The notes: a model not told the origin generated them from the letters alone. A stretch of DNA of 64,000 nt from Candidatus Omnitrophota bacterium (GCA_050250375.1 JBFWOS010000001.1:702361-766360); one strand, 5' to 3'; shown: positions 3,611-20,467, counted from the first letter of the stretch. Program-made: numbers and translations.

Positions 3611-4219
3611 CTACACACTTTTTTTAGCGGTTACGGTTTTTCTGGGAGATGTCCGTCGGGTTTCGGAATGACCGTTGATCATGATCTTGGCCGCGGCCAG
3701 CAGATTCCTGGCGACAAAGTCCGGCTTGATCTTTTTTTCGCGCAGCCGTCCGGTGTCACTGCGTCCGGACAAGACAAAAATAGTCTTGCAGCCGGCGTTG
3801 CGGCCGGTGGCCATGTCCGTCACGGTGTCCCCGACAAAAAAGGCATTATTGGCGATCTGCATATCTTTTCTCAGCAACTTTACGGCCTTGCGGATGGACC
3901 CGATATTCGGTTTGCGGTCTTGACAATCCGAATCGGACCGGGCCGTGCTGTAATAAACCTCCCGGATGACGCCTCCCGCCTTGTTCACTTCCCTCAGCAT
4001 CTTGTTGGTGATCTGGTCGAGTTTCTTCTGGGTGAATATGCCTTTGCCGACCCCGGCCTGGTTGGAGACCACAAAGATGGTAAACCCGTCTTCGGTCAGC
4101 ATCCGGATCGCCTCGAGCGAACCGCGGATGAACTGGAAATTCTTGACCTTGGTGACATACTTCCCGTTGCCCGGAAATTTATTGATGACCCCGTCTCTGT
4201 CTAAAAATGCGATTTTCAT
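3611..4219 (-). CDS. gmhB: D-glycero-D-manno-heptose 1,7-bisphosphate 7-phosphatase (HAD family)
   Basis: FLDRDGVIN and DRKPNIG HAD motifs, about 200 aa. Collinear with E. coli GmhB. 4-nt overlap with the downstream GT2 gene. Confidence 0.8.
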   Translation of the reverse strand: MKIAFLDRDGVINKFPGNGKYVTKVKNFQFIRGSLEAIRMLTEDGFTIFVVSNQAGVGKGIFTQKKLDQITNKMLREVNKAGGVIREVYYSTARSDSDCQDRKPNIGSIRKAVKLLRKDMQIANNAFFVGDTVTDMATGRNAGCKTIFVLSGRSDTGRLREKKIKPDFVARNLLAAAKIMINGHSETRRTSPRKTVTAKKSV

Positions 4220-4989: not shown

Positions 4990-6090
4990 TTACACAAACC
5001 TTTTTAACGTGTCACACACCATATCGATATCATCCCGGGTCATGTGCGGATACATCGGGAGTGACAGGATTTCATTGGCTATCTTTTCCGAGACCGGCAG
5101 GTCGCCCGTCTTATAACCCGCGTCCTGATACGCCTCCTGCAGATGCACGGGGATCGGATAATGGATCAGCACGGCGATCTTGTTGGCCAGCATCTGTTCG
5201 ACGACTTCATCCCGCTTCGGGACCCTGACGGCGTAGGTCTGGAAAACATGCGTCCGGTCCTTCAGGACATTCGGCGTAATCACACTCTTGCATTCGGCCA
5301 GCTGTTCGTTGTAATACGCCGCGTTGTCCGCGCGCATACGGTTCCACTGGTCCAGATGTTTTAATTTCGCCGACAAGACAACCGCCTGGACGGTATCCAG
5401 GCGTGAATTATATCCCTTGATCTTATGGTCGTAACGGTTCTTGCGCCCGTAATCCCTTAACATAAAGATCTTGTCAAAAATCTCCTTGCTGCTGGTGACA
5501 ATCATACCCCCGTCGCCGAACGCGCCCAGGCTTTTGGTCGGATAAAAACTGAAACACGCGACATCCCCCAATGATCCGACCTTTTGGCCGTTATAGGCCG
5601 CTCCATGCGATTGGGCGGCGTCCTCAATCACGGCGATGTTATGGTCGCGGCAGATCGCGCTGATCTCGTCCATGTTTGCCGGCTGTCCGTACAGATGGAC
5701 AACGATCACCGCCTTGGTCCTGGGCGTAATCGCCTGTTTAAACTTGACCGGGTCGATATTGTACGTCTCCTCTTCAATATCGACAAAAACAGGAGTTGCC
5801 CCGGCATACGACACGCACAAGGCGGTCGCGATAAATGTGTATGAAGGCAGGATCACTTCATCCCCCACGGTGATATCCAGAGCCGCGATCGCCAGATAAA
5901 GCGCGTCGGTGCCTGAATTGACCCCGACCGCGTATTTCGCCTGGCAGTATTTGGCAAAGGCGACTTCAAAGTCCTTCTCTTCATCGCCGAGGATAAAATT
6001 CCCTTTTTCAAAAACTTTTTTTAGACCAATATCGATTTCATCCCTGATGAGTTCGTATTGTTGTGAAAAATCGATAAATTTGACGCTCAT
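4990..6090 (-). CDS. DegT/DnrJ/EryC1/StrS-family PLP sugar aminotransferase
   Basis: Catalytic lysine motif FSFYPTKSLGAFGDGG. Length and overall layout are typical of the family. Confidence 0.85.
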   Translation of the reverse strand: MSVKFIDFSQQYELIRDEIDIGLKKVFEKGNFILGDEEKDFEVAFAKYCQAKYAVGVNSGTDALYLAIAALDITVGDEVILPSYTFIATALCVSYAGATPVFVDIEEETYNIDPVKFKQAITPRTKAVIVVHLYGQPANMDEISAICRDHNIAVIEDAAQSHGAAYNGQKVGSLGDVACFSFYPTKSLGAFGDGGMIVTSSKEIFDKIFMLRDYGRKNRYDHKIKGYNSRLDTVQAVVLSAKLKHLDQWNRMRADNAAYYNEQLAECKSVITPNVLKDRTHVFQTYAVRVPKRDEVVEQMLANKIAVLIHYPIPVHLQEAYQDAGYKTGDLPVSEKIANEILSLPMYPHMTRDDIDMVCDTLKRFV

Positions 6091-7169
6091 AAGATTAACC
6101 CTACTTTGTTAAAGACTTCATCCACGGTGATTTCACTGAGACAACTCAGATGGGAACAATCGGTCATCCGGAACTTTCGGTAACACGGACGGCAGGCGAT
6201 GCCGGAAACCACGACGAAATGTTTTTTCTGGTTCGGCCACGGACCGTAAACGTTGTGGTCCACCGGCCCGAACATCGACACCGTGTTGGTCCCGGCCGCA
6301 ACCGCCATGTGCAGGGGACCGCCGTCATTGCAGACAACACCACGGCACCTGTTGAGGAGAGCCAATGACTGTCCTAAACTGGTCTGACCGAATGATTTAT
6401 ATACATTAGGGCACTGCCGGACAATTTCGGTGCAAAGTGTTTCCTCTGATTTGTCACCCATCAGTATAATCTGCACAGAGGATTTTTCAACGATTTTGTG
6501 GATTAATTTGATGTAATTTTCCTGCCCCCAGCGCTTGGAACCCGCGGATTTTCCCCAGCTGGAACCGCCTCCCGGAAATATCCCCAGCACCGGTTGGTCG
6601 GTCGATATTTTGTTTGATTTTAAAAACTGTGCGGCCCAGTCGCGGTGTTCCGGGGTGATGGTGATCTCTAGTTCACGTTGGATCGTTTCCACTCCGCAGT
6701 CAGACAGCAGGTCCAGGTAATATTGAACGACATGTTTGTCCTGAAAACCGGTCAGTTTGATTTTCTCAGTCAGAAACCGGGACCTGTTTTTATAATTAAA
6801 CCCGATCCGGGTCCTGATCCCGACCAGACTGGAGATCACGTTAAACATCTGGTTCATGGAAAAATCAAACAGGACATCGTATTGTTCCGCTTTGATCGTG
6901 CGGACAAAGCCGGAAAATTTTTTCAAGAATTCCCTTTTGGATTGTTTCCTGACGGCCTCAAATTCATCGCGTTCGTAGATATGGACTTTGCGGATCAGTG
7001 AGTGGTCTTCCAAGAGCGGGGCAACGCGTTTGTTCGCCATGTAATCGATGGCCGCGCCGGGAAAGTGATGGCGCAGGTTACTGACCAGCGGGGTCGTGAA
7101 CAGCACATCCCCGATGCCGAATATGTTGACGATCAAGATCCGCGAAGGATTCAGTTTCTTCAGGTTCAT
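6087..7169 (-). CDS. Family 9 glycosyltransferase (ADP-heptose:LPS heptosyltransferase family)
   Basis: N-terminus ILIVNIFGIGDVLFTTP and C-terminus GVVCNDGGPLHMA are GT9 heptosyltransferase signatures. Confidence 0.8.
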   Translation of the reverse strand: MNLKKLNPSRILIVNIFGIGDVLFTTPLVSNLRHHFPGAAIDYMANKRVAPLLEDHSLIRKVHIYERDEFEAVRKQSKREFLKKFSGFVRTIKAEQYDVLFDFSMNQMFNVISSLVGIRTRIGFNYKNRSRFLTEKIKLTGFQDKHVVQYYLDLLSDCGVETIQRELEITITPEHRDWAAQFLKSNKISTDQPVLGIFPGGGSSWGKSAGSKRWGQENYIKLIHKIVEKSSVQIILMGDKSEETLCTEIVRQCPNVYKSFGQTSLGQSLALLNRCRGVVCNDGGPLHMAVAAGTNTVSMFGPVDHNVYGPWPNQKKHFVVVSGIACRPCYRKFRMTDCSHLSCLSEITVDEVFNKVGLIL

Positions 7170-9306: not shown

Positions 9307-9309
9307 GCT

Positions 9310-9346: not shown

Positions 9347-9435
9347 ATTTTAAAAAACTTTGCGGGAGGCGCGGGACAGGACGTTTGTCGAACATGGATA
9401 ATGACCAACTGCCCTCTACCTTACCTTTTCCACAT

Positions 9436-9906: not shown

Positions 9907-9929
9907 AAAAACGTGCCAGTTTGTGCCAG

Positions 9930-10490: not shown

Positions 10491-10557
10491 AATATTTTAT
10501 CCTACACTTATACGATGGACACACCGCTTAAGTAGTGGCATTACATTACTTAACTAC

Positions 10558-10697
10558 TGGTCAATCCCCTTCAACTTCAAAAAATCGCGGACGGTTTGGA
10601 CGACATAATCCATCTGGTTCAATTCAAGGTCCTGGTGGATGCCGATATGGGTGCCGCGGGCGGAGCAGTATTCGGCTTCCCGGGACGTACTTAATTA
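10558..10697 (-). pseudogene. Relic of the last ~43 codons of a DegT/ColD-family gene, a diverged copy of the 3-prime end of the gene at 12222..13475
   Basis: Translates to EAEYCSARGTHIGIHQDLELNQMDYVVQTVRDFLKLKGIDQ*. The intact gene ends EAEYCAGHGTHIGIHQDIELNQLDYVAQTVRDFLKAKGINR*. About 80 percent nt identity over ~140 bp. In frame directly behind the Fic stop codon. Confidence 0.6.
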
Positions 10698-11894
10698 TTG
10701 ATTCAGTCCGCTGTCCTCTTTTAATGAGTAACTCGTGCTGCGGCCGCCGGCCGGGTCCTTAACCAAAACACCTTTTCCAACAAGATCAAGAATGTCCCGA
10801 TGAGCGGTATCCTGCGAACACTTGGTGATTTTCGCCCATTTTGAAGTGGTCAGTTTACCCTCAAAACTGTCAAACAACTTGTTGATCATTGTCTTCTGGC
10901 GTTCGTTAATGGATCCAGCCGGAAGAGAATCCCAGAAGCGCACCTTTTTGAACACACCGGACAATGTGGTTTCGGTTGTGTCCAGCGCCCGGCCCAAACA
11001 ATTTAAAAACCACACCAGCCACGCCGTGATATCAATGCCGTCTTTTGCGGCATGGATACTTTTCTGTGTCTTTTCAAGAATATCGTAATAGGCATTCCGT
11101 TCCTGCCGGATATGGTTCGACATGCTGTAAAAACGCTCCCGGCTGCCGTCGGCGCGCGCCAGCTGCATATCGGCAATGGCCCGGGCTATACGGCCGTTGC
11201 CGTCATCAAAAGGGTGAAGCGTCACGAACCACAAATGCGCGATACCCGCCTTGAGCACGGGGTCCAAGTCCTTCGATCCACCTGTGGTGAGCGAAGGCCT
11301 TCGACCTTGCGCAGGCCGAGCCGAACCATTGAACCAAGCCAGAAATTCCTTCGTTTCACTCTTGAGGCGGCCGGCTTCCGGCGCTTCATAATGGACCTTC
11401 TCCCGGCCAACAGGACCGGACACAACTCGCATGGGGCCATGACGGTCGTCGCGCCAGGCGCCAACGGTAATTTTATGCATTCCACTGTGTCCGGTCGGAA
11501 ACAAACCGGCCTGCCAGCCAAACATTCGATCCTGGGTAAGGGGCTTGTCGAAATTCTGAGTGGCATCGAGCATCATTTCCACCACCCCGTCCACGTGACG
11601 ATCAGACGGCACAAGCCCTCCAATGTCCATACCCAGCCTTCGCGCGATGGATGAGCGCACTTTGGCCGGATCAAGGACCTCCCCCTCAATTTCACTGCTT
11701 TTTAAAACGTCAAGAGTGAGCGTCTGTAAAACGGCCTCCGAACGCAAAGAAAATCCCAGCGTTTCCATGCGTCCGATCAATCGCCCCTGCCGGTTGCGCA
11801 CGGGACCTAATATCGACGTGATTTTTTCATGATCCCATGTAAACGTCGGCCAAATATCTAATTCATGGATGTATTTCATCCCGGTTCCCTTCAT
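10695..11894 (-). CDS. Fic-family protein (DUF4172-type N-domain, Fic core, C-terminal winged helix)
   Basis: Canonical Fic motif HPFDDGNGRIARA. The true start is probably the second Met (MKYIHELD, 11879), which is preceded by AAGGGAA. Confidence 0.9.
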   Translation of the reverse strand: MKGTGMKYIHELDIWPTFTWDHEKITSILGPVRNRQGRLIGRMETLGFSLRSEAVLQTLTLDVLKSSEIEGEVLDPAKVRSSIARRLGMDIGGLVPSDRHVDGVVEMMLDATQNFDKPLTQDRMFGWQAGLFPTGHSGMHKITVGAWRDDRHGPMRVVSGPVGREKVHYEAPEAGRLKSETKEFLAWFNGSARPAQGRRPSLTTGGSKDLDPVLKAGIAHLWFVTLHPFDDGNGRIARAIADMQLARADGSRERFYSMSNHIRQERNAYYDILEKTQKSIHAAKDGIDITAWLVWFLNCLGRALDTTETTLSGVFKKVRFWDSLPAGSINERQKTMINKLFDSFEGKLTTSKWAKITKCSQDTAHRDILDLVGKGVLVKDPAGGRSTSYSLKEDSGLNQ

Positions 11895-11919
11895 GTTTTA
11901 AGCGGCAAACAAACGACAC

Positions 11920-12142
11920 ATTCTCCGCATTTTCTGCGTAGAATATAACACATATTCTCCGCATTAACAAGCGGTATTTCAGACTAAAGAAGATGATCTT
12001 GTCGTAAAAAATACCTGCTTTTGCGGCAGAGTAAATTGATTATATATATGTAAGATATTAAAATATAACAACTTGAGATGGGTTGTTTAAACCACGTGTA
12101 TACGCTTAACCTTTGCGGAGATTAGGCCCATTATTCTCCGCA
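11920..12142 (-). promoter_or_regulatory. Array of ATTCTCCGCAT direct repeats (11920, 11954, 12133) plus one inverted partial copy (TGCGGAGAT at 12114) in the Fic upstream region
   Basis: An 11-mer is identical in three copies with similar flanks (acaCATTCTCCGCAT / acaTATTCTCCGCAT / catTATTCTCCGCAT). An A/T-rich stretch lies between them. Confidence 0.5.
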
Positions 12143-12221
12143 TATCCGGCTCTAATCCCAGGGGCACGTACCCTGTCTTTGGGAAGGGGAGTCCCGGTTT
12201 CGGGACAGAACTACAGCTTTT

Positions 12222-13475
12222 TTACCGGTTAATCCCCTTCGCCTTGAGAAAATCGCGGACGGTCTGGGCGACGTAATCCAGCTGGTTCAGCTCGATGTCC
12301 TGGTGGATCCCGATATGGGTGCCGTGGCCGGCGCAATATTCCGCCTCGGGGAATTCACCTTGTTTATGCCCCATAAAGCCGTAACTCGGGCACTGGGTCG
12401 GGATGGAGGAAAATAAATTTCTTGAGTCGATCCCCTGCTGTTCGATGTGTTGCACGAATTCGTCTTTCGTAAACGGGCAGTTTTCTTTCAGGATGATCGA
12501 GAAGGCATGCGGCCCGATTTTTTCATGTTCCTGTTCATGCAATGTGATAAAAAATTCCTGAAAATCCCTGAACAGGTTGATCAGATACAATAAATTCCGG
12601 CGGCGTTTGCCCAGGATATCCTGAAAGATGTCGATATTACCCAGACCGACAGCCGCTTCCATTTCGTTCATCTTGGCGGAAAAACCGATCCGCTGGAACT
12701 CAAATTTGTTGACGATGCCGTGGTTGCGCAGCGACTGCATGGCCTGGGCTTTTTTCTCGTCGTTGGTGATGATGATCCCGCCTTCAATCGTGGTCACGAT
12801 ATGGGCGGCGTAAAGGCTGAAGGCGGCCATGTCGCCGATCGAGCCGATCTTCTTCCCTTTATATTCCGCGCCATGCGCCTCGGCCGCGTCTTCGATAACG
12901 ATCAGGTTATGTTTCTTGGCGATGGCCATGATCTTATCCATCTCGGCCGGTTTGCCCATCAGATGCACGGGCATGAGGGCGCGCGTTTTTTGGGTGATCG
13001 CTTTTTCAATCAGGTCCGGATTGATATTCAGCGTGTGCCGGTCGACATCCACAAACACAGGCGTTAACCCGGCCTGCAGGACGGCATTGGCGGTAGCGAC
13101 AAAGGTCAGCGCCGGGATGATCACCTCATCCCCGCGTTGGGCGCCGTAATCATACAGCACCGCGCAGGCAATCGCGTCGGCGTCGGTCCCGCTGCTGACG
13201 GCCACGGCGTATTTCACGCCGAACAGTTTGGCGAAACGTTCTTCGAACTCCTGCACAAAACGCCCGCGCGTCAGCCATTTTGACCGCAACGCCTCCTGGA
13301 TCAGCTCAACGGAGCGGTCCGTCAGGGAAACGGTCCCGAACGGGACCTTGAAATCTTTCTTAGCCGACATGGCTGAACTATTTTCCATTCCTAAAGAACT
13401 CCATGGCTTTTTCGTAGCGCTCCGGCGTGCCGATGTCAAAAAATTCGCCTTTGGACTTAAACCCGTACAAACCAT
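12222..13475 (-). CDS. ColD/E1(DdhC, RfbH)-type PMP-dependent NDP-4-keto-6-deoxy-sugar 3-dehydrase
   Basis: DegT fold in which the Schiff-base Lys is replaced by His (FSLYAAHIVTTIEGG, cf. ColD/E1 FY.HHI.TMEGG). C-terminal Cys residues are present. The start is more likely an internal Met (13388 or 13370), because the track start overlaps the upstream gene by 98 nt. Confidence 0.8.
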   Translation of the reverse strand: MVCTGLSPKANFLTSARRSATKKPWSSLGMENSSAMSAKKDFKVPFGTVSLTDRSVELIQEALRSKWLTRGRFVQEFEERFAKLFGVKYAVAVSSGTDADAIACAVLYDYGAQRGDEVIIPALTFVATANAVLQAGLTPVFVDVDRHTLNINPDLIEKAITQKTRALMPVHLMGKPAEMDKIMAIAKKHNLIVIEDAAEAHGAEYKGKKIGSIGDMAAFSLYAAHIVTTIEGGIIITNDEKKAQAMQSLRNHGIVNKFEFQRIGFSAKMNEMEAAVGLGNIDIFQDILGKRRRNLLYLINLFRDFQEFFITLHEQEHEKIGPHAFSIILKENCPFTKDEFVQHIEQQGIDSRNLFSSIPTQCPSYGFMGHKQGEFPEAEYCAGHGTHIGIHQDIELNQLDYVAQTVRDFLKAKGINR

Positions 13476-14088
13476 CTTCGATCAGGGAGGGAAACACATC
13501 GTATTCCAACGAAAACTTTCCTTCTTCGGGCATCATCTCAAACACATCCTGGTTGAAACAATACCGCCCGGCGTTAATAAAGGCCGCGCCTTTGTCTTTT
13601 TTTTCTTCAAAGGCCAGGATCCGGTCGGAGTCGTCCATCGTCAGGCTCCCGTAGTCTTTGCTGTCTTCCATCCGCGCGGCCACCATAGACGCGGCCGCTT
13701 TCTTGGACCGGTGGAATTCGGCAAATTTCTTAAAGTCGACCTCGCAGTAACAATCCCCGTTTAACACAAAAAACGGATCGCTTTCAACGATGGGCTGGGC
13801 GTTCTTAACCGCGCCGCCGGTCCCGAGCGGTTCTTCTTCCCGGGAAAAATCGACGACGAAATCCCGGTCGTTCTTCCGGTAATAATCTTCGATCCACTGG
13901 GCCTTGTATCCGGTGCACAGGACAAAACGCTGAAAGCCCTGCTCATATAATTTTTCCATGACGATATCCAGAAACGGCCGCTCTTCAAACTGGACCATGA
14001 CCTTGGGCGTGTCGGGGTCAATGCTTCTCAAACGTTTGCCTAACCCGCCGCACAGGATAACGACATCAAGATTCTCCAGCATTGTCAT
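13378..14088 (-). CDS. Sugar-1-phosphate nucleotidyltransferase (HddC/GDP-heptose guanylyltransferase-like)
   Basis: VVILCGGLGKRLR nucleotidyltransferase motif. Start chosen at MTMLENLD because the track N-extension overlaps the kinase gene. Confidence 0.8.
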   Translation of the reverse strand: MTMLENLDVVILCGGLGKRLRSIDPDTPKVMVQFEERPFLDIVMEKLYEQGFQRFVLCTGYKAQWIEDYYRKNDRDFVVDFSREEEPLGTGGAVKNAQPIVESDPFFVLNGDCYCEVDFKKFAEFHRSKKAAASMVAARMEDSKDYGSLTMDDSDRILAFEEKKDKGAAFINAGRYCFNQDVFEMMPEEGKFSLEYDVFPSLIEDGLYGFKSKGEFFDIGTPERYEKAMEFFRNGK

Positions 14089-15076
14089 ATTCTCCGTTCG
14101 GTTGATAAAAAATAATCTGGCTGCCCAGGCTCTCGAATTCAAACGGTACCAGGAGCAAATCCTTTAATTTTTCCCTGACCTTCTTCTGTTTCTCCGGGGG
14201 GACAAATAATAATACGAACCCGCCTCCGCCCGCCCCGAGCAATTTTCCGCCGACCGCGCCGGACGCCTTGGCCGAGTCATAAATCTCGTCAATCATCGGG
14301 GTCGAAATCTTGTCGGAGAGTTTTCTCTTGATCTGCCAGCCCTCATCGAGGAGTTCGCCGAATTCTTTGAGCCGGTCTTCCTTGAGCAGTTCAAGCCCCC
14401 TGACCGCCATTGCGTGCATGGCCTTCAACTCCGGTTTCTTTTTGGGGATATTTTTAATCTGATGGGCCGCGATCACCGAGGCGGTCCGGGAAAACCCGGT
14501 AAAAAATAACATCAAATGGTCCTGAAACCGCTTCAAGCGGTCCGAGGGAATAATCACCTTGTTGACCTGCAGAAGCTGGCTCCCGCCGAATTCAATAAAA
14601 TTAAATCCTCCGTAAGCCGCCAGCGCCTGGTCCTGGCAGCCGACATTTTCATGGCACATCTGCTGTTCGATATAAATGGCCTCTTCCGTCAGTTTGGACT
14701 TGCTCGTCATCCGTCCCAGCAGGGCGTAAAGGCTGTTTAACAATCCGACGGTGAATGAAGAACTTGAACCCAGGCCGGTCCGGGCCGGCAAATCGCCGTC
14801 GTGGTGGATCTCGATCCCTTTATGGATGTCCAGGTATCGAAGGACTTCCCGCACGGCCGGGTGATCAATATCATTGATTTCGGAAACATGTTCCATCTTG
14901 GAGTAGATGATCCTGGACTTATGGTCGAAGAACGGCGGCAGGTACCGGCAGGTGATATAACAATATTTATTAATCGTCGTTGCCAGGACAGCCCCGGGGT
15001 TGTTTTCAAACCAGGCCGGATAATCCGTCCCTCCTCCGAAAAACGACATGCGAAATGGTGTGCGGCTGATGATCAT
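14066..15076 (-). CDS. GHMP-family sugar kinase (HddA-like D-glycero-D-manno-heptose 7-phosphate kinase / fucokinase-like)
   Basis: MIISRTPFRMSFFGGGTDYP N-terminus. GHMP motif PARTGLGSSSSFTVG. Confidence 0.8.
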   Translation of the reverse strand: MIISRTPFRMSFFGGGTDYPAWFENNPGAVLATTINKYCYITCRYLPPFFDHKSRIIYSKMEHVSEINDIDHPAVREVLRYLDIHKGIEIHHDGDLPARTGLGSSSSFTVGLLNSLYALLGRMTSKSKLTEEAIYIEQQMCHENVGCQDQALAAYGGFNFIEFGGSQLLQVNKVIIPSDRLKRFQDHLMLFFTGFSRTASVIAAHQIKNIPKKKPELKAMHAMAVRGLELLKEDRLKEFGELLDEGWQIKRKLSDKISTPMIDEIYDSAKASGAVGGKLLGAGGGGFVLLFVPPEKQKKVREKLKDLLLVPFEFESLGSQIIFYQPNGEYDNAGES

Positions 15077-16584
15077 ACCGGCTTCCTCTCCTCCAGGATT
15101 TTTCTCTTAAGTTTGATCGTGGTTGAACGGACCGTCTCATCATAGGCCGTCTGGCCGAATTTGGTTTTGAGCAGATCCAGGAATTGGCTGTTCGTGTGAT
15201 ATTTCATCCAGGCCTCGTCCCGGAAGGCGAGCACTTCCTGCGCCGAGAGATATTTCGTCGGCAGCGGCAGCTGATGATAGGAATGCTGGGAATACCCCGT
15301 ATACGTGTCCGGAAGTTTCCAGCCCTTTTCAAGCGCCATGCCGTACAGCGGACTGCCGGGGTACGCCATAGCCGAATAAAAATTGGCCTCTTCGGTGTTC
15401 ATCTCCATCGCCAGGTCCAGGGTCGTCTGCATGCTCTGGTGATCATCCTCGGGAAGGCCGAAAATGTAATTGGCGATGACGTTGATGTCATGCTCCCGGA
15501 TTTTCCCGACCACGTCCCTGATGTCGACATCTTCAAACCGGCCTTTGGTGACATCCTTGCGCACCCGGGTATTGCCGCTTTCGATGCCCAGGGCCAGCCA
15601 ATTGACACCGGCTTTTTTGAGGGTCTCGAGAAATTTTTCTTTGACCGTGTCCACCCGGGAATAACACCAGATGTTGAATTTGTATTTCCGTTCGATGATC
15701 AGTTCACACAGCTTCATAAAATGATTTGAGTTCAGGACGAACAGTTCGTCGGCGATCTTGATATTGGTGATCCCGCGTTTGGCGAGTTCATCAAATTCTC
15801 CAATGATGAATTCCGGGTCCCAGTAACGGAACACGGCACTTCCGTCGGAATACTGGTTTTCCTGCCGGTTGATGATGTTGATCATGCAAAACGAACATTT
15901 CATCGGGCAGCCGAGGCTGGTGTACAAGGCCGCGAACGGCTGGCGTTGGGAACCGTTCGGGTACGAATGCCACAGGCTTGTCCGGTAATTTTTCATCGGC
16001 AGTTTGTCCCAGGGAATACCCGGCAGTTCTTTGGGCAGGTCCGCCTTCTCGACGATCGGGGAGGGCGCGTTTAACACGACTGTTCCGTCCTGCCTGTATC
16101 CGAGTCCGGGAACGGCACTAAGTTTGTCTTTCAAATTGGTCTTAAGCAAAGTGGAAATCGTGTAAACCCCTTCGTTCTGGCAGACAAAATCGATGCACGC
16201 GTGATTCTCCAGCACTTCGCGGGATAACGCGGCGATGTGGCCCCCGACAAACAGAATCTTTACCTCCGGCAAGATATTCCTGAGCTCCTGCGCGAGCGCG
16301 ACGGCGCCTTCCATATTCTGCGAACTCGCGGACGGCTGCTGGCCGTAAACGACAAAACAGGCCACCTTCGGCTTTATCTCCTTGATCTTCCGGGCTGATT
16401 CTTCATCCGTTAAGTGCAGGGCCTCACAGTCGAGGATGTCCGCCGAAAACCCTCTCGAGAGACAGTGGCTGGTCAGCATACCGGCCCAGATCGGCGGCTC
16501 AATGGCAGAAAAATCTTTGCTTAAATCCTGGTAGATTTTATGCGAGGCATTGGGATGAACAAATAAAATATCAAGCTGTCCCAT
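15073..16584 (-). CDS. Cobalamin(B12)-binding radical SAM protein (class B rSAM)
   Basis: N-terminal B12-binding Rossmann-like domain (KILFVGGHIAAL). CPMKCSFC radical SAM cluster motif. 503 aa. 4-nt overlap with the kinase gene. Confidence 0.85.
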   Translation of the reverse strand: MGQLDILFVHPNASHKIYQDLSKDFSAIEPPIWAGMLTSHCLSRGFSADILDCEALHLTDEESARKIKEIKPKVACFVVYGQQPSASSQNMEGAVALAQELRNILPEVKILFVGGHIAALSREVLENHACIDFVCQNEGVYTISTLLKTNLKDKLSAVPGLGYRQDGTVVLNAPSPIVEKADLPKELPGIPWDKLPMKNYRTSLWHSYPNGSQRQPFAALYTSLGCPMKCSFCMINIINRQENQYSDGSAVFRYWDPEFIIGEFDELAKRGITNIKIADELFVLNSNHFMKLCELIIERKYKFNIWCYSRVDTVKEKFLETLKKAGVNWLALGIESGNTRVRKDVTKGRFEDVDIRDVVGKIREHDINVIANYIFGLPEDDHQSMQTTLDLAMEMNTEEANFYSAMAYPGSPLYGMALEKGWKLPDTYTGYSQHSYHQLPLPTKYLSAQEVLAFRDEAWMKYHTNSQFLDLLKTKFGQTAYDETVRSTTIKLKRKILEERKPV

Positions 16585-16587
16585 AAC

Positions 16588-16707
16588 TCAATACTGCCTA
16601 GTTAGTAGGGCACCCGCCAAAACTTTCTGTTTTGGCGAGGCCTCGCCCAATGAACAGCGTTCATTGGGCGGGTTAGGGTGAATAAATAGAATGTCTATCT
16701 GGCTCAT
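16588..16707 (-). repeat. Nested-palindrome element plus a relic duplicate of the first 12 codons of the rSAM gene
   Basis: Three overlapping perfect palindromes: GCCAAAAC-tttct-GTTTTGGC (16616-16636), GGCGAGG/CCTCGCC (16634-16647) and CGCCCAATGAAC-agc-GTTCATTGGGCG (16644-16670). Upstream at 16707-16672 is ATG AGC CAG ATA GAC ATT CTA TTT ATT CAC CCT AAC = MSQIDILFIHPN. The real gene starts MGQLDILFVHPN, and the differences are mostly at wobble positions. Confidence 0.5.
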
Positions 16708-16715
16708 CGGCTTGT

Positions 16716-17663
16716 TTAAACGTTACTGAGTTGGGATGTCACCTGCCGGACCTTCGGGATCACCGTGTAGCCTTTAATCAACTCGGTAATACCGTCCGCC
16801 AGGGAGACATCGGGCCTGAAGCCCGTCTTTTCAATTTTTTCATTACTGACGATATAATCCCTCTTATCAGGATCTTCGCCGGCATGGGATTCACTAAAAT
16901 TAAACCCGGGCACCTGTTTTTTGATTTCTTCGCACAGCTGCAACTTGCTGATATTCGCGTCACTGAGACCTACATTATAGGGTTCATCCTTCATCTTGTC
17001 AAAATGGTCGAGGGCATGCATGAACGCCTTGGCAATATCACGGACATGGATAAAATTGCGCATAAAATGGGCCTCAAACAATTCAACCGATCCGTCAAAG
17101 ACGGCCTTGTACGTAAAATCATTCACCAGAAGATCAAGCCGCATGCGCGGCGACACACCAAAGGCCGTGGCCAGGCGCAACGTGATCCCCTCTCCGGCTT
17201 CAAGGACCATCTGTTCGGCCTGGACCTTCAGCCGGCCGTAAACCGAGATCGGTTTTAACGGTGTTTCCTCCGTGCAGAACTTTCCTTTTTCCCCGATGCC
17301 GTAACCGCTGTTGGTCGTCGGATAAATGATCTTCTGTCCCGGACGGCGCAGTTTGATGATCTCCCTGAGGGCGTCAATTATAATTTCCTCGGCTTCTTTA
17401 GGATGACGGTCGCAGATCGGCGCTCCGGTCAGACACGCCAATGGAAAAACGGCATCGGCCTGCGGAACCAGCCGCTTTAACAACGCCGCGTCCCGCGTGT
17501 CGCCCCGGACAATGGCCAGGCCTTTATGGTGACAGCAGTCCAACAGCGACGTCTGGTTATACATAAAATTATCCAGCACCGTCACGTTATGCCCGGCCTG
17601 CAAAAGACGCGGGACCATAACCGACCCCAGATATCCGGCCCCGCCGGTGATTAATATATTCAT
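16716..17663 (-). CDS. NAD(P)-dependent epimerase/dehydratase (extended SDR)
   Basis: NILITGGAGYLGS Rossmann motif and YGRLK catalytic dyad. Start taken at MNILITGG, giving an ATGA overlap with the upstream gene. Confidence 0.8.
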   Translation of the reverse strand: MNILITGGAGYLGSVMVPRLLQAGHNVTVLDNFMYNQTSLLDCCHHKGLAIVRGDTRDAALLKRLVPQADAVFPLACLTGAPICDRHPKEAEEIIIDALREIIKLRRPGQKIIYPTTNSGYGIGEKGKFCTEETPLKPISVYGRLKVQAEQMVLEAGEGITLRLATAFGVSPRMRLDLLVNDFTYKAVFDGSVELFEAHFMRNFIHVRDIAKAFMHALDHFDKMKDEPYNVGLSDANISKLQLCEEIKKQVPGFNFSESHAGEDPDKRDYIVSNEKIEKTGFRPDVSLADGITELIKGYTVIPKVRQVTSQLSNV

Positions 17664-18592
17664 GTCGAAACCTCGTTTTTGTACCAATCGATTGTCTTTT
17701 GAATTCCAACGTTTAGATCTTCTTTAACCTTCAGCCCCAATTTGTTCATCCTGCCCGTATCCAACAGCTTCTGCATAACCCCATCCGGCATCGAACGGTC
17801 ATATGTAATCTGGCCTTTAAACCCGGTCAATCGGGCGATCAGCTGCGCCAACTCTTCAATGGTGATATCCTTCCCTGTCCCGATATTGACCACATCCTCA
17901 CCCGCATCATTTTTCAGCATAAACAGGGCCGCTTCGATAAAATCATCGACAAAAAGAAATTCCCGTCTCGCCTTCCCGGAACCGCCGACACTGACTTCCG
18001 GGCGGTTATTCCGGACCGCGTCGACAAATTTGTGGATCAACGCGCCCATGACATGCGCGGTCTTTAAATCCGTATCCGATCCCGGCCCGTACACCGTCGC
18101 GGGGATCATCACCGCCGTGTTCAGCCCGTACTGTTTCCGGAAACTGCGGGCGAGAGAAATACCGGCGATCTTCGCGATGGAATACGGCTCACTGGTCTTT
18201 TCCAGCGGGCCGGTCAGGATGGCGTCTTCGTTCATCGGCTGCGGGCATTCCCCGGGATAAACGCATGAACTGGCCAGATAGAGAATCTTTTTGGCTTTAA
18301 ACTTATTCGCCGCGTAAAAAATATTGCATTCGCTTTGAAGATTATGATAAATAAAGTCCGCAGGAGATTGTTCGTTCGCGGTGATCCCGCCCGACCGGGT
18401 CGATCCCAAAACCACATAGTCTGGACGGTGGGTCTGAAAAAAATCGTAAACCGATGCCTGGATGGCGGCGTTAAGCGCCAGGGCTGAAACGCTGAAGACG
18501 GATGGAAACCCCTGCGCGGTGAAATATCGGCAGAGCGCTTGTTCGATTATATCATTGTGCCCGACCAGTAATATCTTCGATGATTTGTCCAT
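17660..18592 (-). CDS. GDP-L-fucose synthase (Fcl/WcaG/ColC) homologue with a degenerate dinucleotide-binding motif
   Basis: Collinear with E. coli Fcl (PADFIYHNL, LASSCVYP, EPYSIAKIAG, NIGTGKDITIEELAQ, MPDGVMQKLLD). Catalytic S/C/Y/K/H are retained, but GxxGxxG reads GHNDIIE. Confidence 0.8.
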   Translation of the reverse strand: MDKSSKILLVGHNDIIEQALCRYFTAQGFPSVFSVSALALNAAIQASVYDFFQTHRPDYVVLGSTRSGGITANEQSPADFIYHNLQSECNIFYAANKFKAKKILYLASSCVYPGECPQPMNEDAILTGPLEKTSEPYSIAKIAGISLARSFRKQYGLNTAVMIPATVYGPGSDTDLKTAHVMGALIHKFVDAVRNNRPEVSVGGSGKARREFLFVDDFIEAALFMLKNDAGEDVVNIGTGKDITIEELAQLIARLTGFKGQITYDRSMPDGVMQKLLDTGRMNKLGLKVKEDLNVGIQKTIDWYKNEVST

Positions 18593-19131
18593 TATTTCCG
18601 GTTGTAATAATTCCCGTGTTCAATCAGCAGTGTCGGGCGGTTGTCTTTTCGTTCAAGGGCCTCTTTGTACGCCGGAAAAATATCTTCCGGTTCCTCAAGC
18701 TCAACTACATGGACCGTGGTCAGGAGCCGCCGGAAGGCCTCGGCATAATTCCCGACGTGCTGATGGCCGGGGTTGACCGGTTCATCCGGGCCGGTGGCCA
18801 CACGGATAATCACTCTGGGGACAAGCCGGTCCCCGCTGATCGCGGGTATTTTATCGAGCATGTTGGCCATATCACCCGTGGCCAGCAGTAAAAAATTCTG
18901 ACGCGGATAAACACTGATCGGAATATATCCGGCCAGCGCCATGCCGATGGTAAACTGCATCTGGAAACTCTCGTTGATCGGCATCTCAAGCGTCTTTTCC
19001 CGGGGCACATCCCGCAGGGTCTGGAACATAAACGTACCGGGTCCGGCGACCGTCTGCCCGACAAACATCGTATTCGGCTGCTGCGCCAGCCACTCCATGG
19101 TCCTTTTTAGTTCATCAAAATATTTCATCAA
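18592..19131 (-). CDS. TPP-enzyme Pyr-domain subunit (2-oxoacid dehydrogenase E1-beta / transketolase central domain-like), short form without the C-terminal E2-binding domain
   Basis: FVGQTVAGPGTFMFQTL...PINESFQMQFTIGMALAGYIPI resembles the E1beta N-domain. Only 179 aa. Confidence 0.6.
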   Translation of the reverse strand: MMKYFDELKRTMEWLAQQPNTMFVGQTVAGPGTFMFQTLRDVPREKTLEMPINESFQMQFTIGMALAGYIPISVYPRQNFLLLATGDMANMLDKIPAISGDRLVPRVIIRVATGPDEPVNPGHQHVGNYAEAFRRLLTTVHVVELEEPEDIFPAYKEALERKDNRPTLLIEHGNYYNRK

Positions 19132-19141
19132 TCAAATCCGT

Positions 19142-19756
19142 TTAAAATTTTATTTTCCAGCCCAGCCCGGAATGGGGGTATTCATTCTTGTATTGAAAAT
19201 AAATGATTTTCTTTTCGTATTTAGTCCCTTTAAACCACGGGTCAGGGCTTCCCCAGACTTCGCGGGTATCGGTCATGACGCTCAGACCGTTATCGCCGAC
19301 AATAAATTTGACAGGCAGATCAAAATTGACCGCGTATTTCACCGCTTCGTGAAAGATCCCTGTTTCCGCCGACATGTCCCCGCAAAAAAGAAAGGCACGT
19401 CCATTTTTCTTCTGGTTTTTCAGGCTCCAGGCCGTGCCCACGGCCGTGCCCATCAGGCTGCCGACAATCCCTGAACACAGGACTTTGTGTTCCGGAAAAC
19501 ACAGCGCGATGCTGTTCCCCTGAAGGATCGATTCTTTCAACGCATCCCGGGGAACACCTTTCAACAGGGCCAGTTCATGCGAGTCCCAGAACCCGAACAC
19601 AAAATCATCCGGCCCGATATTTTCTTCCCGGAAAATCCGGATCAGGGCATCTTCCCGCCCCGCCCTCAGATGGACCGGAGCGCGGATAACGCCCTGGGCG
19701 AAGATTTCAGCAATTTCCTTTTCGAAACTGATCAGATCGTCTTTAGTAATATTCAT
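19142..19756 (-). CDS. TPP-binding PP-domain subunit (E1-alpha / transketolase N-terminal-like), short form
   Basis: TPP motif GDMSAETGIFHEAVKYAVNFDLPVKFIVGDNG (GDG-x26-NN pattern). 204 aa. Confidence 0.65.
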   Translation of the reverse strand: MNITKDDLISFEKEIAEIFAQGVIRAPVHLRAGREDALIRIFREENIGPDDFVFGFWDSHELALLKGVPRDALKESILQGNSIALCFPEHKVLCSGIVGSLMGTAVGTAWSLKNQKKNGRAFLFCGDMSAETGIFHEAVKYAVNFDLPVKFIVGDNGLSVMTDTREVWGSPDPWFKGTKYEKKIIYFQYKNEYPHSGLGWKIKF

Positions 19757-20466: not shown

Positions 20467-20467
20467 C

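What the first reader, a model, noticed from the sequence alone, without database searches (positions are those of the whole stretch)
15073..16584. B12-binding radical SAM enzyme inside a nucleotide-sugar operon
Class B (cobalamin-dependent) rSAM enzymes perform C-methylation or other radical chemistry on unactivated carbons (the Fom3, GenK, TsrM and HpnP types). Its gene overlaps by 4 nt with the HddA-like kinase gene and it is followed by the SDR/Fcl-like genes, which implies it acts on the sugar nucleotide. Sugar C-methylation or radical epimerisation in LPS is poorly characterised.
Basis: partly seen in the sequence, partly recalled or inferred. Interest (0 to 1): 0.6.

Follow-up and report, generated by a model that had tools for sequence, protein, structure and literature searches.

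The report
Radical SAM enzyme in heptose-sugar cassette
The gene is a real B12-domain radical SAM enzyme of an unstudied but very widespread family that always travels with a set of heptose-sugar genes and a thiamine-dependent enzyme, so it probably helps build an unknown carbon-modified cell-surface sugar.

Summary
Observation confirmed. ORF 15073-16584 (-) encodes a 503-aa protein with a B12-binding domain, a radical SAM core (C226/C230/C233) and a class-B fold. Its stop overlaps the start of a heptose-kinase-like gene (ATGA). The host is a Candidatus Omnitrophota MAG.

The gene is not a member of any curated family. The best matches, HpnJ and BchE, score about a quarter of their cut-offs.

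It belongs to a conserved, mobile cassette found in Omnitrophota, SAR11, OM43, Prochlorococcus, Azospirillum and Solidesulfovibrio magneticus. The cassette holds:
- a heptose kinase, a GmhB-like phosphatase and a nucleotidyltransferase (plus a GmhA-like isomerase in some loci);
- a dehydrogenase 55% identical to C. jejuni Cj1427, the GDP-heptose C4-dehydrogenase;
- a ColD-type "aminotransferase" with His replacing the catalytic Lys, probably a C3-dehydratase;
- an Fcl-like reductase;
- a two-subunit E1-type thiamine enzyme.

The rSAM is tied most closely to the thiamine enzyme. The two are equally conserved, are often adjacent, and occur as a natural rSAM-E1alpha fusion seen in five sequence variants.

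C-methylation is not shown. A non-methylating radical step coupled to the thiamine-dependent C-C chemistry is at least as likely. I found no published characterisation.

The parts
15073..16584 (-). Class-B-architecture radical SAM enzyme (B12-binding domain plus rSAM core), 503 aa. This is the finding.
   Evidence: Pfam; CxxxCxxC invariant; AF2 model and Foldseek; below every NCBIfam cut-off.
14066..15076 (-). GHMP sugar kinase, HddA-like. Its ATG overlaps the rSAM stop (ATGA).
   Evidence: Pfam GHMP N and C domains. NCBIfam HddA 141.5 bits, cut-off 600. Best PDB hits are heptose kinases 3k85, 4usk and 4n3o. Co-occurs with the rSAM in 25 of 29 distant loci.
13378..14088 (-). Sugar-1-phosphate nucleotidyltransferase, HddC-like. 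The start is uncertain (14088 or 14082).
   Evidence: Pfam NTP_transferase 118.5 bits. NCBIfam HddC 155.6 bits, cut-off 300. Relatives are 234 aa. Fused to a GmhB-like HAD domain in SAR11 loci.
12222..13388 (-). DegT-family PLP enzyme with His in place of the catalytic Lys (FSLYAAHIVTTIEGG). Predicted ColD/E1-type sugar C3-dehydratase.
   Evidence: The alignment to perosamine synthase and 7b0m puts His opposite their Lys. E1 (3bcx) and ColD (2gms, 3gr9) are among the hits. His is conserved in the cassette's DegT-type gene in the loci examined.
16716..17663 (-). SDR 55% identical to C. jejuni Cj1427. Predicted NDP-heptose C4-dehydrogenase.
   Evidence: phmmer against 6vo6: 378 bits, E 2.3e-112. 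Identity 55% over 301 ungapped residues. The 6vo6 title is Cj1427. Cj1427 function from PMC10680097. An L-2-hydroxyglutarate oxidase gene sits in the cassette in three loci.
17660..18592 (-). GDP-L-fucose-synthase-like SDR. Predicted keto-reductase, possibly with epimerase activity.
   Evidence: NCBIfam Fcl 331 bits, cut-off 500. PDB Fcl hits at about 239 bits, plus further chains deposited as 'GDP-L-fucose synthase' (7anh, 7anc, 7m13), which from my own knowledge are C. jejuni heptose C4-reductases.
18592..19131 (-). E1beta-like thiamine-enzyme subunit, minimal form (179 aa, pyrimidine-binding domain only).
   Evidence: Pfam Transket_pyr. The PI-x-E activating-Glu motif can be read in the translation. 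77% median identity across Omnitrophota.
19142..19756 (-). E1alpha-like thiamine-enzyme subunit, minimal form (204 aa) with a GD..(27)..GDN ThDP/Mg motif.
   Evidence: Pfam E1_dh and TPP_enzyme_C; sequence. 77.5% median identity across Omnitrophota. A full-size homologue is fused to the rSAM in P0162.
16585..16715 (-). Gap in front of the rSAM. It holds a decayed copy of the gene's original start codon region plus an insert of about 122 nt with two strong hairpins, which supplies the present 5' end.
   Evidence: Sequence; alignment to relatives, where the gap is 7 nt; RNA fold z = -5.9; no Rfam match; not repeated in the window.
3611..4219 (-). GmhB-like heptose-1,7-bisphosphate phosphatase (HAD-IIIA).
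   Evidence: NCBIfam NF006506 139 bits, cut-off 178; Pfam. In the same conserved locus in relatives. HAD or NTPt-HAD fusions occur in distant cassettes.
6087..7169 (-). GT9 glycosyltransferase, LPS heptosyltransferase-like. Candidate user of the product.
   Evidence: Pfam PF01075. NCBIfam heptosyltransferase II 130 bits, cut-off 134.6. Directly follows the cassette in relatives.
4990..6090 (-). Second DegT-family enzyme that keeps the catalytic Lys (a true aminotransferase). Part of the conserved Omnitrophota locus, not of the mobile cassette.
   Evidence: Pfam 423 bits; FSFYPTKSLGAFGDGG motif.

Best explanation
The gene encodes a radical SAM enzyme with a class-B (B12-domain) architecture. 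It belongs to a large, uncharacterised subfamily that is a fixed part of a mobile sugar-biosynthesis cassette.

Proposed pathway, with steps marked as assigned by sequence or inferred:
1. Sedoheptulose-7-P is turned into an NDP- (probably GDP-) D-glycero-D-manno-heptose by a GmhA-like isomerase, the HddA-like kinase, the GmhB-like phosphatase and the HddC-like nucleotidyltransferase. These are assigned by homology. The isomerase is present in only some loci.
2. The Cj1427-like SDR oxidises C4, using 2-oxoglutarate as oxidant. This rests on 55% identity to the characterised enzyme and on lhgO genes in three cassettes.
3. The His-type DegT enzyme removes the C3 hydroxyl, giving a 3-deoxy-4-keto-heptose. 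This follows from the ColD/E1 signature, and the same two-enzyme reaction has been demonstrated in vitro with the C. jejuni enzymes.
4. The E1-type thiamine enzyme and the radical SAM enzyme then act together, probably as a complex, to alter the carbon skeleton of this intermediate. The partnership is supported by evidence. The chemistry is inferred.

My preferred reading of step 4: the thiamine enzyme attaches an acyl (acetyl) unit. The radical SAM enzyme then performs a non-methylating radical step next to it, using 5'-deoxyadenosyl radical H-abstraction from the heptose side chain. That step would be C-C bond formation/cyclisation or a dehydration/oxidation that creates or consumes the carbonyl partner. 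An Fcl-like reductase finishes the sugar. In Omnitrophota a GT9 heptosyltransferase-like enzyme then places it in the LPS core.
For: Identity and fold of the rSAM.

Cassette conservation:
- About 40 Omnitrophota loci share the order E1a-E1b-Fcl-SDR-rSAM-kinase-NTPt-DegT(His).
- In 29 distant loci the rSAM keeps the His-type DegT (25), the E1-type pair (25), the kinase (25), SDRs (24) and NTPt/HAD (19) within 9 kb, in shuffled order. These loci include SAR11, OM43, Prochlorococcus, Colwellia, Marinomonas, cyanobacteria, Elusimicrobia and Bdellovibrionales.
- The S. magneticus RS-1 plasmid carries the full set plus SIS and lhgO genes.

Partner identities:
- SDR as Cj1427 homologue. Cj1427 function, and Cj1427 plus the C3-dehydratase giving GDP-3-deoxy-4-keto-heptose in vitro: PMC10680097.
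- His replacing Lys in the DegT enzyme.
- Kinase, phosphatase and heptosyltransferase.
- lhgO in three loci.

Coupling to the thiamine enzyme:
- The rSAM, E1a and E1b are the three most conserved proteins of the locus (77.3, 77.5 and 77.0% median identity). The kinase, SDR and DegT are at about 69-70%, and Fcl, NTPt and GT9 at 45-51%.
- The E1 pair is the commonest immediate neighbour of the rSAM in distant loci.
- A natural fusion joins a full rSAM, a 25-aa linker and a full E1alpha. It exists in five full-length variants from JGI, ENA and Logan assemblies, one of them on six contigs.
- E1-type pairs (AviB1/AviB2, Pau11/Pau12) are the proposed installers of C4-acetyl branches on keto-sugars (PMC4753412). 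YerE provides the ThDP paradigm on 3-deoxy-4-keto sugars (PMC9306805).

Leaning non-methylating:
- HpnJ and BchE are the best NCBIfam matches for all 34 diverse family members, with best E-values of 4e-50 and 4e-48. The best methylase family reaches 7e-37.
- The best solved-structure match is AprD4.
Against: - No biochemistry exists for any member, and every partner assignment is by homology.
- From my own knowledge, most characterised class-B enzymes are methyltransferases, and several (GenK, GenD1, Fom3) act on sugars or nucleotide-linked substrates.
- The N-terminal domain is almost as conserved as the core. That fits a real cobalamin site and therefore also fits methyl transfer.
- The preference for HpnJ/BchE over methylase profiles is only about 30 bits and may reflect profile properties.
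- The Azospirillum lipoferum locus has the rSAM, kinase and Fcl-like genes but no E1 pair within 14 kb. The thiamine partner is therefore not universal.
- Some marine loci also carry a YerE-type ThDP enzyme, so which ThDP enzyme does the C4 branching is unclear.
- The very tight rSAM-kinase linkage could mean the rSAM acts before nucleotide activation.
Confidence: 0.45

Rival explanations
1. It is a cobalamin-dependent C-methyltransferase of the GenK/Fom3/GenD1 type. It would add a methyl group to an unactivated carbon of the heptose-derived sugar, for example C7 (CH2OH to CH(OH)CH3) or the ThDP-installed branch.
For: - The B12-binding domain scores above the Pfam cut-off.
- The N-terminal domain is conserved, with invariant loop residues G81, P84, S87, G114, H116, E138 and G139.
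- The fold matches the methylases MgmA, TsrM, TokK and CysS.
- Many methylase profiles match weakly.
- No other C-methyltransferase is part of the cassette.
- From my own knowledge, most characterised class-B enzymes are methylases.
Against: - It does not reach the cut-off of any methylase family.
- The best profile matches across the family are the non-methylases HpnJ and BchE, and the best structural match is AprD4.
- The family occurs in SAR11 and OM43 genomes. From my own knowledge these lineages do not make cobalamin and are thought to lack cobalamin enzymes.
- Methylation does not explain a fusion to a thiamine E1alpha subunit better than the alternatives do.
Confidence: 0.3
2. It is an AprD4-like, cobalamin-independent radical diol dehydratase or dehydrogenase. 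It would convert a vicinal diol of the heptose (for example the C6/C7 side chain) into a deoxy-carbonyl. The E1-type thiamine enzyme would then use that carbonyl as acceptor for chain extension, and the SDRs would reduce the product.
For: - AprD4 (6fd2) is the best PDB match by sequence (E 3.5e-19) and by fold (TM 0.70/0.77).
- The AprD4 profile matches 32 of 34 family members.
- From my own knowledge, AprD4 acts on a sugar and is paired with a reductase. SDR reductases are in the cassette.
- A reactive carbonyl product would explain the fusion to the ThDP enzyme.
- Occurrence in SAR11 and OM43 fits independence from cobalamin.
Against: - The AprD4 profile scores 95.6 bits against a cut-off of 500, and the sequence match covers only the rSAM core, residues 214-434.
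- The N-terminal domain is well conserved, unlike what one would expect for a vestigial cofactor domain.
- The cassette already has a C3-dehydratase and a C4-dehydrogenase that supply a keto acceptor.
Confidence: 0.15
3. The rSAM acts before nucleotide activation, on a sugar phosphate. The dedicated GHMP kinase then phosphorylates the product at C1, so the rSAM substrate is not a nucleotide sugar. A related variant is that the E1-type enzyme mainly serves as a pyruvate-driven electron donor for the rSAM cluster.
For: - The rSAM-kinase pair is the most persistent pairing. It includes the ATGA overlap here, adjacency in L065, L067, L077 and L084, and rSAM-NTPt-kinase in L073, L076 and L082.
- The kinase is a distinct subfamily, at 141 bits against the HddA cut-off of 600.
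- No E2 or E3 partner, or other known acceptor for the E1 enzyme, was identified in the cassettes.
Against: - GmhA-, GmhB- and HddC-like genes, together with a Cj1427 homologue at 55% identity, point to the ordinary GDP-heptose route feeding later tailoring steps.
- NCBIfam equivalog cut-offs are strict, so a low HddA score does not show a new substrate.
- I know of no precedent for an E1-type enzyme reducing a radical SAM cluster.
Confidence: 0.1

Closest known systems
HpnJ (TIGR03471), hopanoid-associated B12-domain radical SAM enzyme
   Same: It has the same two-domain architecture and is the best curated profile match for every family member tested. By genetics, HpnJ also works on a sugar unit, converting the glucosamine of BHT-GlcN into a five-membered carbocycle (PMC9092360).
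   Different: The score is 144 bits against a cut-off of 577.6. No hopanoid genes were identified nearby. The partners here are GDP-heptose enzymes and a thiamine enzyme. HpnJ itself has no biochemical characterisation.
BchE (TIGR02026), anaerobic Mg-protoporphyrin monomethyl ester cyclase
   Same: It has the same architecture and is the second-best profile match, with full-length alignment (residues 6-471). It is a non-methylating ring-forming enzyme.
   Different: The score is 124 bits against a cut-off of 481. No tetrapyrrole genes were identified in the locus. JGI's automatic 'cyclase' names for homologues are over-annotation.
AprD4 (PDB 6FD2), radical SAM 1,2-diol dehydratase of apramycin biosynthesis
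   Same: It is the closest solved structure by sequence and by fold and acts on a sugar ring. From my own knowledge it is followed by a reductase.
   Different: Identity in the structural alignment is 18-19%. The profile score is 95.6 against a cut-off of 500, and the sequence match covers only the core. From my own knowledge AprD4 does not use cobalamin, whereas here the N-terminal domain is strongly conserved.
Class-B sugar and phosphonate C-methyltransferases (GenK, GenD1, Fom3; solved relatives TokK, TsrM, MgmA, CysS)
   Same: They share the B12 domain plus rSAM core and the fold. From my own knowledge, Fom3 also uses a nucleotide-linked substrate and sits in a cluster with a ThDP enzyme and a nucleotidyltransferase.
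   Different: No methylase family cut-off is reached. The ThDP enzyme here is E1-type, not a phosphonopyruvate decarboxylase. No PEP mutase gene was identified, and methyl transfer is untested.
C. jejuni capsular GDP-heptose modification pathway (GmhA/HddA/GmhB/HddC, Cj1427, C3-dehydratase, C4-reductases)
   Same: The cassette contains homologues of each of these. The SDR is 55% identical to Cj1427. It also has a His-type dehydratase, an Fcl-like reductase, and a kinase, phosphatase and transferase. Cj1427 plus the dehydratase give GDP-3-deoxy-4-keto-heptose in vitro (PMC10680097).
   Different: That review of the C. jejuni pathway does not mention radical SAM chemistry ('radical' occurs 0 times in PMC10680097), and to my knowledge it involves no thiamine enzyme. 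The cassette here adds both, so the end product must differ.
ThDP-dependent sugar branching: YerE/YerF (yersiniose) and the E1-type pairs AviB1/AviB2 and Pau11/Pau12
   Same: In both, a 3-deoxy-4-keto nucleotide sugar is made by a His-type dehydratase, then a ThDP enzyme and a reductase act (PMC9306805; PMC4753412). The cassette has an E1alpha/beta-type pair with intact ThDP motifs.
   Different: The papers read on those systems describe no radical SAM partner. The Omnitrophota E1 pair is a minimal 204 + 179 aa form. Direct similarity to AviB1/B2 was not tested.

Membership tests
Radical SAM superfamily | CxxxCxxC motif for the SAM-binding [4Fe-4S] cluster within a partial TIM-barrel core | tested here: met
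   C226/C230/C233 are invariant. PF04055 scores 69.6 bits against a cut-off of 29.5. The modelled core matches solved rSAM enzymes.
Class B (cobalamin-dependent) radical SAM | N-terminal Rossmann-like B12-binding domain preceding the rSAM core | tested here: met
   PF02310 matches residues 28-146 at 45.6 bits, cut-off 32.1. The model has a beta-alpha-beta N-domain. Fold matches include TsrM, TokK, OxsB, MgmA and CysS.
Class B (cobalamin-dependent) radical SAM | Actual binding of, and dependence on, cobalamin | not testable with these tools
   Only indirect evidence is available. The N-domain is nearly as conserved as the core. Against that, the best structural match, AprD4, is (from my own knowledge) cobalamin-free, and the family occurs in SAR11 and OM43.
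Class B rSAM methyltransferases (GenK/Fom3/TokK/MgmA type) | Methyl transfer from SAM via methylcobalamin to substrate (SAH plus 5'-dA products), or membership of a curated methylase family | tested here: not met
   Family membership was tested and failed: MgmA 84 against 360, PhpK 83 against 600, KedN5 53 against 700, HpnR 61 against 650, TsrM-type 39 against 500. The chemistry itself is not testable here.
HpnJ (TIGR03471) | Score at or above 577.6 bits, and hopanoid biosynthesis gene context | tested here: not met
   The score is 144 bits. The neighbours are sugar-nucleotide and LPS genes.
BchE (TIGR02026) | Score at or above 481 bits, and bacteriochlorophyll gene context | tested here: not met
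   The score is 123.6 bits. No tetrapyrrole genes were identified in the locus or in related loci.
AprD4 family diol dehydratase (NF033070) | Score at or above 500 bits | tested here: not met
   The score is 95.6 bits and covers the core only. AprD4 is nevertheless the best structural neighbour.
GDP-heptose pathway of the C. jejuni type (context of the finding) | Cj1427-type NDP-heptose C4-dehydrogenase | tested here: met
   The SDR scores 378 bits and is 55% identical over 301 residues to 6VO6, which is Cj1427. lhgO sits in three cassettes. Enzyme activity was not tested.
GDP-heptose pathway of the C. jejuni type (context of the finding) | HddA, GmhB and HddC equivalogs | tested here: inconclusive
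   All three are best or near-best matches but fall below the strict cut-offs: HddA 141.5 against 600, HddC 155.6 against 300, GmhB 139 against 178. The top PDB hits of the kinase are heptose kinases.
ColD/E1-type PLP/PMP sugar 3-dehydratases | His replacing the Schiff-base Lys of DegT-family aminotransferases | tested here: met
   His aligns with the Lys of 7b0m and perosamine synthase. It is conserved in the cassette's DegT-type gene in the loci examined, and the second DegT gene keeps Lys.
E1-type ThDP sugar-branching pairs (AviB1/AviB2-like) | Two-subunit E1alpha/E1beta ThDP enzyme with no E2/E3, in a keto-sugar pathway; sequence relationship to AviB1/B2 | tested here: inconclusive
   The architecture and the ThDP motifs are present, and no E2 or E3 gene was identified in the loci. 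Similarity to AviB1/B2 was not tested because no sequences were at hand.

The most novel reading that the evidence does not exclude
The radical SAM enzyme and the E1-type thiamine enzyme form one catalytic unit that builds a carbocyclic or higher-carbon sugar on a nucleotide-linked 3-deoxy-heptose.

The thiamine enzyme would add an acetyl unit at C4. The rSAM would abstract H from the C7 side-chain carbon and join it to the new carbonyl, closing a five-membered carbocycle. The product would be a caryose-type sugar. Caryose is 4,8-cyclo-3,9-dideoxy-nonose, and its biosynthesis is stated to be unknown (PMC9092360). A still bolder variant is direct coupling of a substrate radical with the thiamine-bound enamine.

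That would be a new enzyme partnership, radical SAM plus ThDP. It would also explain a sugar present in the LPS core of a whole candidate phylum and in abundant marine bacteria.
Probability: 0.15. Interest if true: 0.9.

Novelty: new variant of a known kind. Interest (0 to 1): 0.66.

Why it matters
- Class-B radical SAM enzymes are a large and mostly uncharacterised group, and very few are known from primary cell-surface glycan pathways.
- This subfamily is big: 613 clusters at 50% identity with E <= 1e-30.
- It is conserved at 72-82% identity in all 43 Omnitrophota-type loci compared.
- It is also present in very abundant ocean bacteria (SAR11, OM43, Prochlorococcus) and in cultivable Azospirillum and S. 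magneticus.
- The cassette extends the well-studied Campylobacter GDP-heptose pathway with two extra enzymes, a radical SAM and a thiamine E1 pair, which nature has even fused together.
- Working out the reaction would probably reveal a new carbon-skeleton-modified heptose derivative, and possibly a new type of radical/ThDP cooperation.
- It would give a chemical marker for the Omnitrophota envelope.
- All upstream substrates can already be made enzymatically, so the question can be tested directly.

Tried and rejected
- **Literature.** Full-text searches for radical SAM with cobalamin, GHMP kinase and nucleotidyltransferase, with heptose, and with O-antigen and transketolase found nothing relevant.
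- **Erwiniose idea.** I considered that the rSAM methylates C7 to give an 8-deoxy-octose as in erwiniose. I dropped this as a specific link because erwiniose and caryophyllose are explained by long-chain donors of YerE-type ThDP enzymes (PMC9306805).
- **Bradyrhizose.** The published 11-gene cluster is not described in enough detail to compare.
- **Trinickia caryophylli and Bradyrhizobium.** I could not check whether they carry the cassette.
- **Riboswitch.** I looked for a riboswitch, for example cobalamin or SAM, in the 131-nt leader. There is no Rfam match.
- **First genome scan.** The first attempt, with a 34-sequence alignment, failed for lack of a conserved stretch.
- **SDR structure.** A single-sequence AlphaFold model of the SDR was useless (pLDDT 34). 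It was used only to read the PDB title of 6VO6.
- **Cj1427 papers.** PMC7509852 and PMC7500870 are not held.
- **Plasmids.** tblastn against plasmids gave only four carriers.

Full report
**1.

The minus-strand ORF 15073-16584 encodes 503 aa. It has a B12-binding domain (PF02310, residues 28-146, 45.6 bits) and a radical SAM core (PF04055, residues 222-391, 69.6 bits). The cluster cysteines C226, C230 and C233 are invariant in diverse relatives.

An identical protein is recorded from a Candidatus Omnitrophota MAG on a 1.2-Mb contig. An AlphaFold model built on 32 sequences is confident (pLDDT 88.9, pTM 0.91). It matches the solved class-B-type enzymes: AprD4 is best (TM 0.70/0.77), followed by MgmA, TsrM, TokK, OxsB and CysS.

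The stop codon overlaps the start of the next gene in an ATGA. The whole run from the E1alpha-like gene to the DegT-type gene is packed with overlaps or gaps of about 10 nt or less. The exception is the 131 nt in front of the rSAM.

**2. It belongs to no curated family, but the family is large**

No NCBIfam cut-off is approached:

| Family | Score (bits) | Cut-off (bits) |
|---|---|---|
| HpnJ | 144 | 577.6 |
| BchE | 124 | 481 |
| ApyD | 114 | 750 |
| AprD4 | 96 | 500 |
| MgmA | 84 | 360 |

An exhaustive search of 1.8 billion cluster representatives finds 613 clusters with E <= 1e-30. Within Omnitrophota the protein is unusually conserved: the best 120 clusters are 76-88% identical.

**3. The neighbourhood**

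On the coding strand the order is:
- carbamoyltransferase;
- SxtJ-like membrane protein;
- E1alpha-like (204 aa) and E1beta-like (179 aa) thiamine-enzyme subunits;
- Fcl-like SDR;
- a second SDR;
- the rSAM;
- GHMP kinase (HddA-like);
- nucleotidyltransferase (HddC-like);
- a DegT-family enzyme.

Further along lie a GT9 heptosyltransferase-like gene, a second DegT gene, a GT2 gene, a GmhB-like phosphatase and an MGDG-synthase-like GT. On the other side lie UXS-like and UDP-sugar dehydrogenase genes and an LptD-like gene. This is an LPS-type locus. In a relative with a 2-Mb contig the same genes are contiguous from LptD to PriA.

**4. The gene set is a cassette that moves between phyla**

The 80 best were kept. 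Beyond Omnitrophota, at 46-60% identity, they come from:
- Pelagibacteraceae single-cell genomes;
- Methylopumilus and other Betaproteobacteria;
- a Prochlorococcus;
- Colwellia and Marinomonas ostreistagni;
- cyanobacteria, Spirochaetes, Bdellovibrionales, Elusimicrobia, Planctomycetes, Clostridia, Binatia and Deltaproteobacteria.

I searched six-frame ORFs of all loci with the window's proteins and clustered the ORFs of 29 distant loci. Within 9 kb of the rSAM these loci hold:

| Partner | Loci (of 29) |
|---|---|
| DegT-type gene | 25 |
| E1-type thiamine pair | 25 |
| GHMP kinase | 25 |
| SDRs | 24 |
| Nucleotidyltransferase and/or HAD phosphatase | 19 |

Gene order is shuffled, and several of the contigs are truncated, so these counts are lower bounds.

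Extra recurrent members are SIS (GmhA-like) isomerases, NTP-transferase-HAD fusions, an RmlC-like cupin and, in SAR11 and Prochlorococcus, a YerE-type ThDP enzyme.

Cultured carriers were found on plasmids. Solidesulfovibrio magneticus RS-1 pDMC1 has the complete set plus an SIS gene and an L-2-hydroxyglutarate oxidase. Azospirillum lipoferum 4B and A. argentinense Az39 carry reduced sets.

**5. What the partners are**

- **The second SDR.** It scores 378 bits against PDB 6VO6 and is 55% identical over 301 ungapped residues. [quoted passage not shown] An L-2-hydroxyglutarate oxidase gene sits inside the cassette in three unrelated loci. That is independent support for the same chemistry.
- **The adjacent DegT-family protein.** It has His where aminotransferases have the Schiff-base Lys (FSLYAAHIVTTIEGG). 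The alignment to perosamine synthase and 7b0m shows this directly, and E1 and ColD dehydratases are among its hits. The His is kept in the cassette's DegT-type gene in the loci examined, often as the classical FSFYYAHHMSTIEGG. The second DegT gene of the locus keeps Lys. So this is a ColD/E1-type C3-dehydratase. The Raushel group showed that Cj1427 plus the C. jejuni HS:5 C3-dehydratase make GDP-D-glycero-3-deoxy-4-keto-heptose in vitro.
- **The kinase.** Its best solved relatives are heptose kinases.
- **The phosphatase and the GT9 enzyme.** Both score just under the GmhB and heptosyltransferase II cut-offs.
- **The Fcl-like SDR.** It resembles GDP-fucose synthases. It also matches further chains deposited under that name (7anh, 7anc, 7m13), which from my own knowledge are C. 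jejuni heptose C4-reductases.

**6. The closest functional partner is the thiamine enzyme**

Three lines of evidence agree.

- **Conservation.** Across 43 Omnitrophota-type loci the rSAM, E1alpha and E1beta are the three most conserved proteins, at 77.3, 77.5 and 77.0% median identity. The kinase, SDR and dehydratase are at 69-70%, and Fcl, NTP-transferase and GT9 at 45-51%.
- **Adjacency.** In distant loci the E1 pair is the most frequent immediate neighbour of the rSAM.
- **Fusion.** Protein P0162 (829 aa) is a full-length rSAM, a linker of about 25 residues and a full E1alpha subunit. The E1alpha part is 49% identical to the one in the S. magneticus cassette. Its cluster has five full-length variants from JGI, ENA and Logan assemblies. 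One variant is on six contigs of up to 68.5 kb. The gene sits between an SDR and a further gene that starts 5 nt after its stop.

The Omnitrophota E1 subunits are minimal, but they retain the GD...N ThDP/Mg motif and the activating Glu motif. No E2 or E3 gene was identified in the loci, so this is not a 2-oxoacid dehydrogenase complex.

The known role for such pairs in sugar pathways is to attach an acetyl branch to a 4-keto sugar. AviB1/AviB2 and Pau11/Pau12 are the examples. The YerE/YerF paradigm operates on exactly the 3-deoxy-4-keto type of acceptor.

**7. What the rSAM itself does**

Nothing here proves the reaction.

For methylation:
- From my own knowledge, most characterised class-B enzymes are methylases.
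- The N-terminal domain is almost as conserved as the core.

Against methylation as the default:
- For all 34 diverse family members the best curated matches are HpnJ and BchE, with best E-values of 4e-50 and 4e-48. The best methylase family reaches 7e-37.
- Both HpnJ and BchE are non-methylating enzymes that make five-membered carbocycles. By genetics, HpnJ does so on a sugar.
- The best solved relative is the sugar diol dehydratase AprD4.
- The family occurs in SAR11 and OM43. From my own knowledge these lineages neither make cobalamin nor are thought to depend on it.

My best reading (confidence about 0.45) is a non-methylating radical step that is mechanistically coupled to the thiamine-dependent C-C chemistry on the 3-deoxy-4-keto-heptose.

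The rivals are:
- plain C-methylation (about 0.3);
- an AprD4-like dehydration that supplies a carbonyl acceptor (about 0.15). This overlaps my preferred non-methylating reading, so these figures are not meant to sum to one;
- action before nucleotide activation, or an electron-donor role for E1 (about 0.1).

The most novel reading not excluded is ring closure between C7 of the heptose and the ThDP-installed acetyl carbon. That would give the skeleton of caryose (4,8-cyclo-3,9-dideoxy-nonose), whose biosynthesis is stated to be unknown.

**8. Comparison and novelty**

The enzyme works like a class-B radical SAM enzyme, and it passes the architectural tests for that class. It fails the membership tests for every named family. 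The pathway around it is an extension of the Campylobacter GDP-heptose modification pathway. The review of that pathway read here does not mention radical SAM chemistry, and to my knowledge it involves no thiamine enzyme.

I found no paper that describes this cassette. I rate it a new variant of a known kind. It would move towards categorically new only if the radical/ThDP cooperation is shown.

**9. Limits**

- All functions are inferred from sequence, context and literature on homologues.
- Cobalamin dependence, the substrate and the product are untested.
- The A. lipoferum locus lacks the E1 pair.
- Some loci contain up to three ThDP enzymes, so the division of labour among them is unclear.
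- I could not check the genomes of caryose or bradyrhizose producers.

Noticed in passing
window 16585-16715 (minus strand): The rSAM's original start region (ATGAGCCAGATAGACATTCTATTTATTCACCCTAAC, aligning with the true start in relatives) is still present but is cut off by an insert of about 122 nt. The insert forms two strong hairpins (fold z = -5.9) and carries a diverged replacement 5' end with the ATG now in use. In relatives the same junction is 7 nt. There is no Rfam match and no other copy in the window.
   Followed up: partly
window 10555-10679 and 12223-12347: The last 125 nt of the His-type DegT gene are repeated at 83% identity just beyond the Fic/DUF4172 gene (10695-11894). The Fic cassette of about 1.67 kb therefore appears to have inserted into the gene's 3' end while bringing a replacement end. 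This is the same style of event as at the rSAM start. Short repeats ending in TTCTCCGCAT lie at 11896-12143.
   Followed up: no
window 7272-11894 and 22414-28135: Two blocks interrupt a locus that is contiguous in relatives (L001). One holds a methyltransferase, TetR, Sel1-repeat and Fic genes. The other is a low-GC (about 0.41) block with a 284-aa protein and a 1591-aa Gly-rich repeat protein carrying DUF7619.
   Followed up: partly
homologues P0124, P0126, P0134, P0141, P0191, P0260: Several family members carry inteins (Hint/Intein_splicing/LAGLIDADG domains). They sit at three or more sites: one right at the CxxxCxxC cluster motif (query residues about 228-232), one near residue 340 and one or more later in the core.
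   Followed up: partly
window 18592-19756; L044 13230-14390: The Omnitrophota E1-type thiamine enzyme is a very small form, with an alpha subunit of 204 aa and a beta subunit of 179 aa that lacks the transketolase C-terminal domain. A SAR11 locus (L044) carries this mini pair, a normal-size E1 pair and a YerE-type ThDP enzyme side by side, giving three ThDP enzymes in one sugar cluster.
   Followed up: partly
L085 (S. magneticus RS-1 pDMC1) 27453-28655; also L059 and L074: An L-2-hydroxyglutarate oxidase gene lies inside the cassette. That fits recycling of the L-2-hydroxyglutarate made by a Cj1427-type dehydrogenase. A NUDIX hydrolase sits between the rSAM and the kinase in S. magneticus and just after the kinase in A. 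lipoferum, and its role is unexplained.
   Followed up: partly
homologue P0180 (1173 aa); loci L067, L080, L082: Some lineages have a tandem double B12-rSAM protein, or two to four different B12-domain rSAM genes in the same sugar locus. This suggests several radical steps, perhaps including a true methylase.
   Followed up: no
window 19921-22285: A carbamoyltransferase followed by an SxtJ-like membrane protein matches part of the saxitoxin SxtI/J/K trio, and relatives also have a 52-aa DUF5989 gene. In some relatives (for example L013 and L015) the carbamoyltransferase and SxtJ-like genes lie on the other side of the cassette. This hints at O-carbamoylation of the glycan.
   Followed up: no
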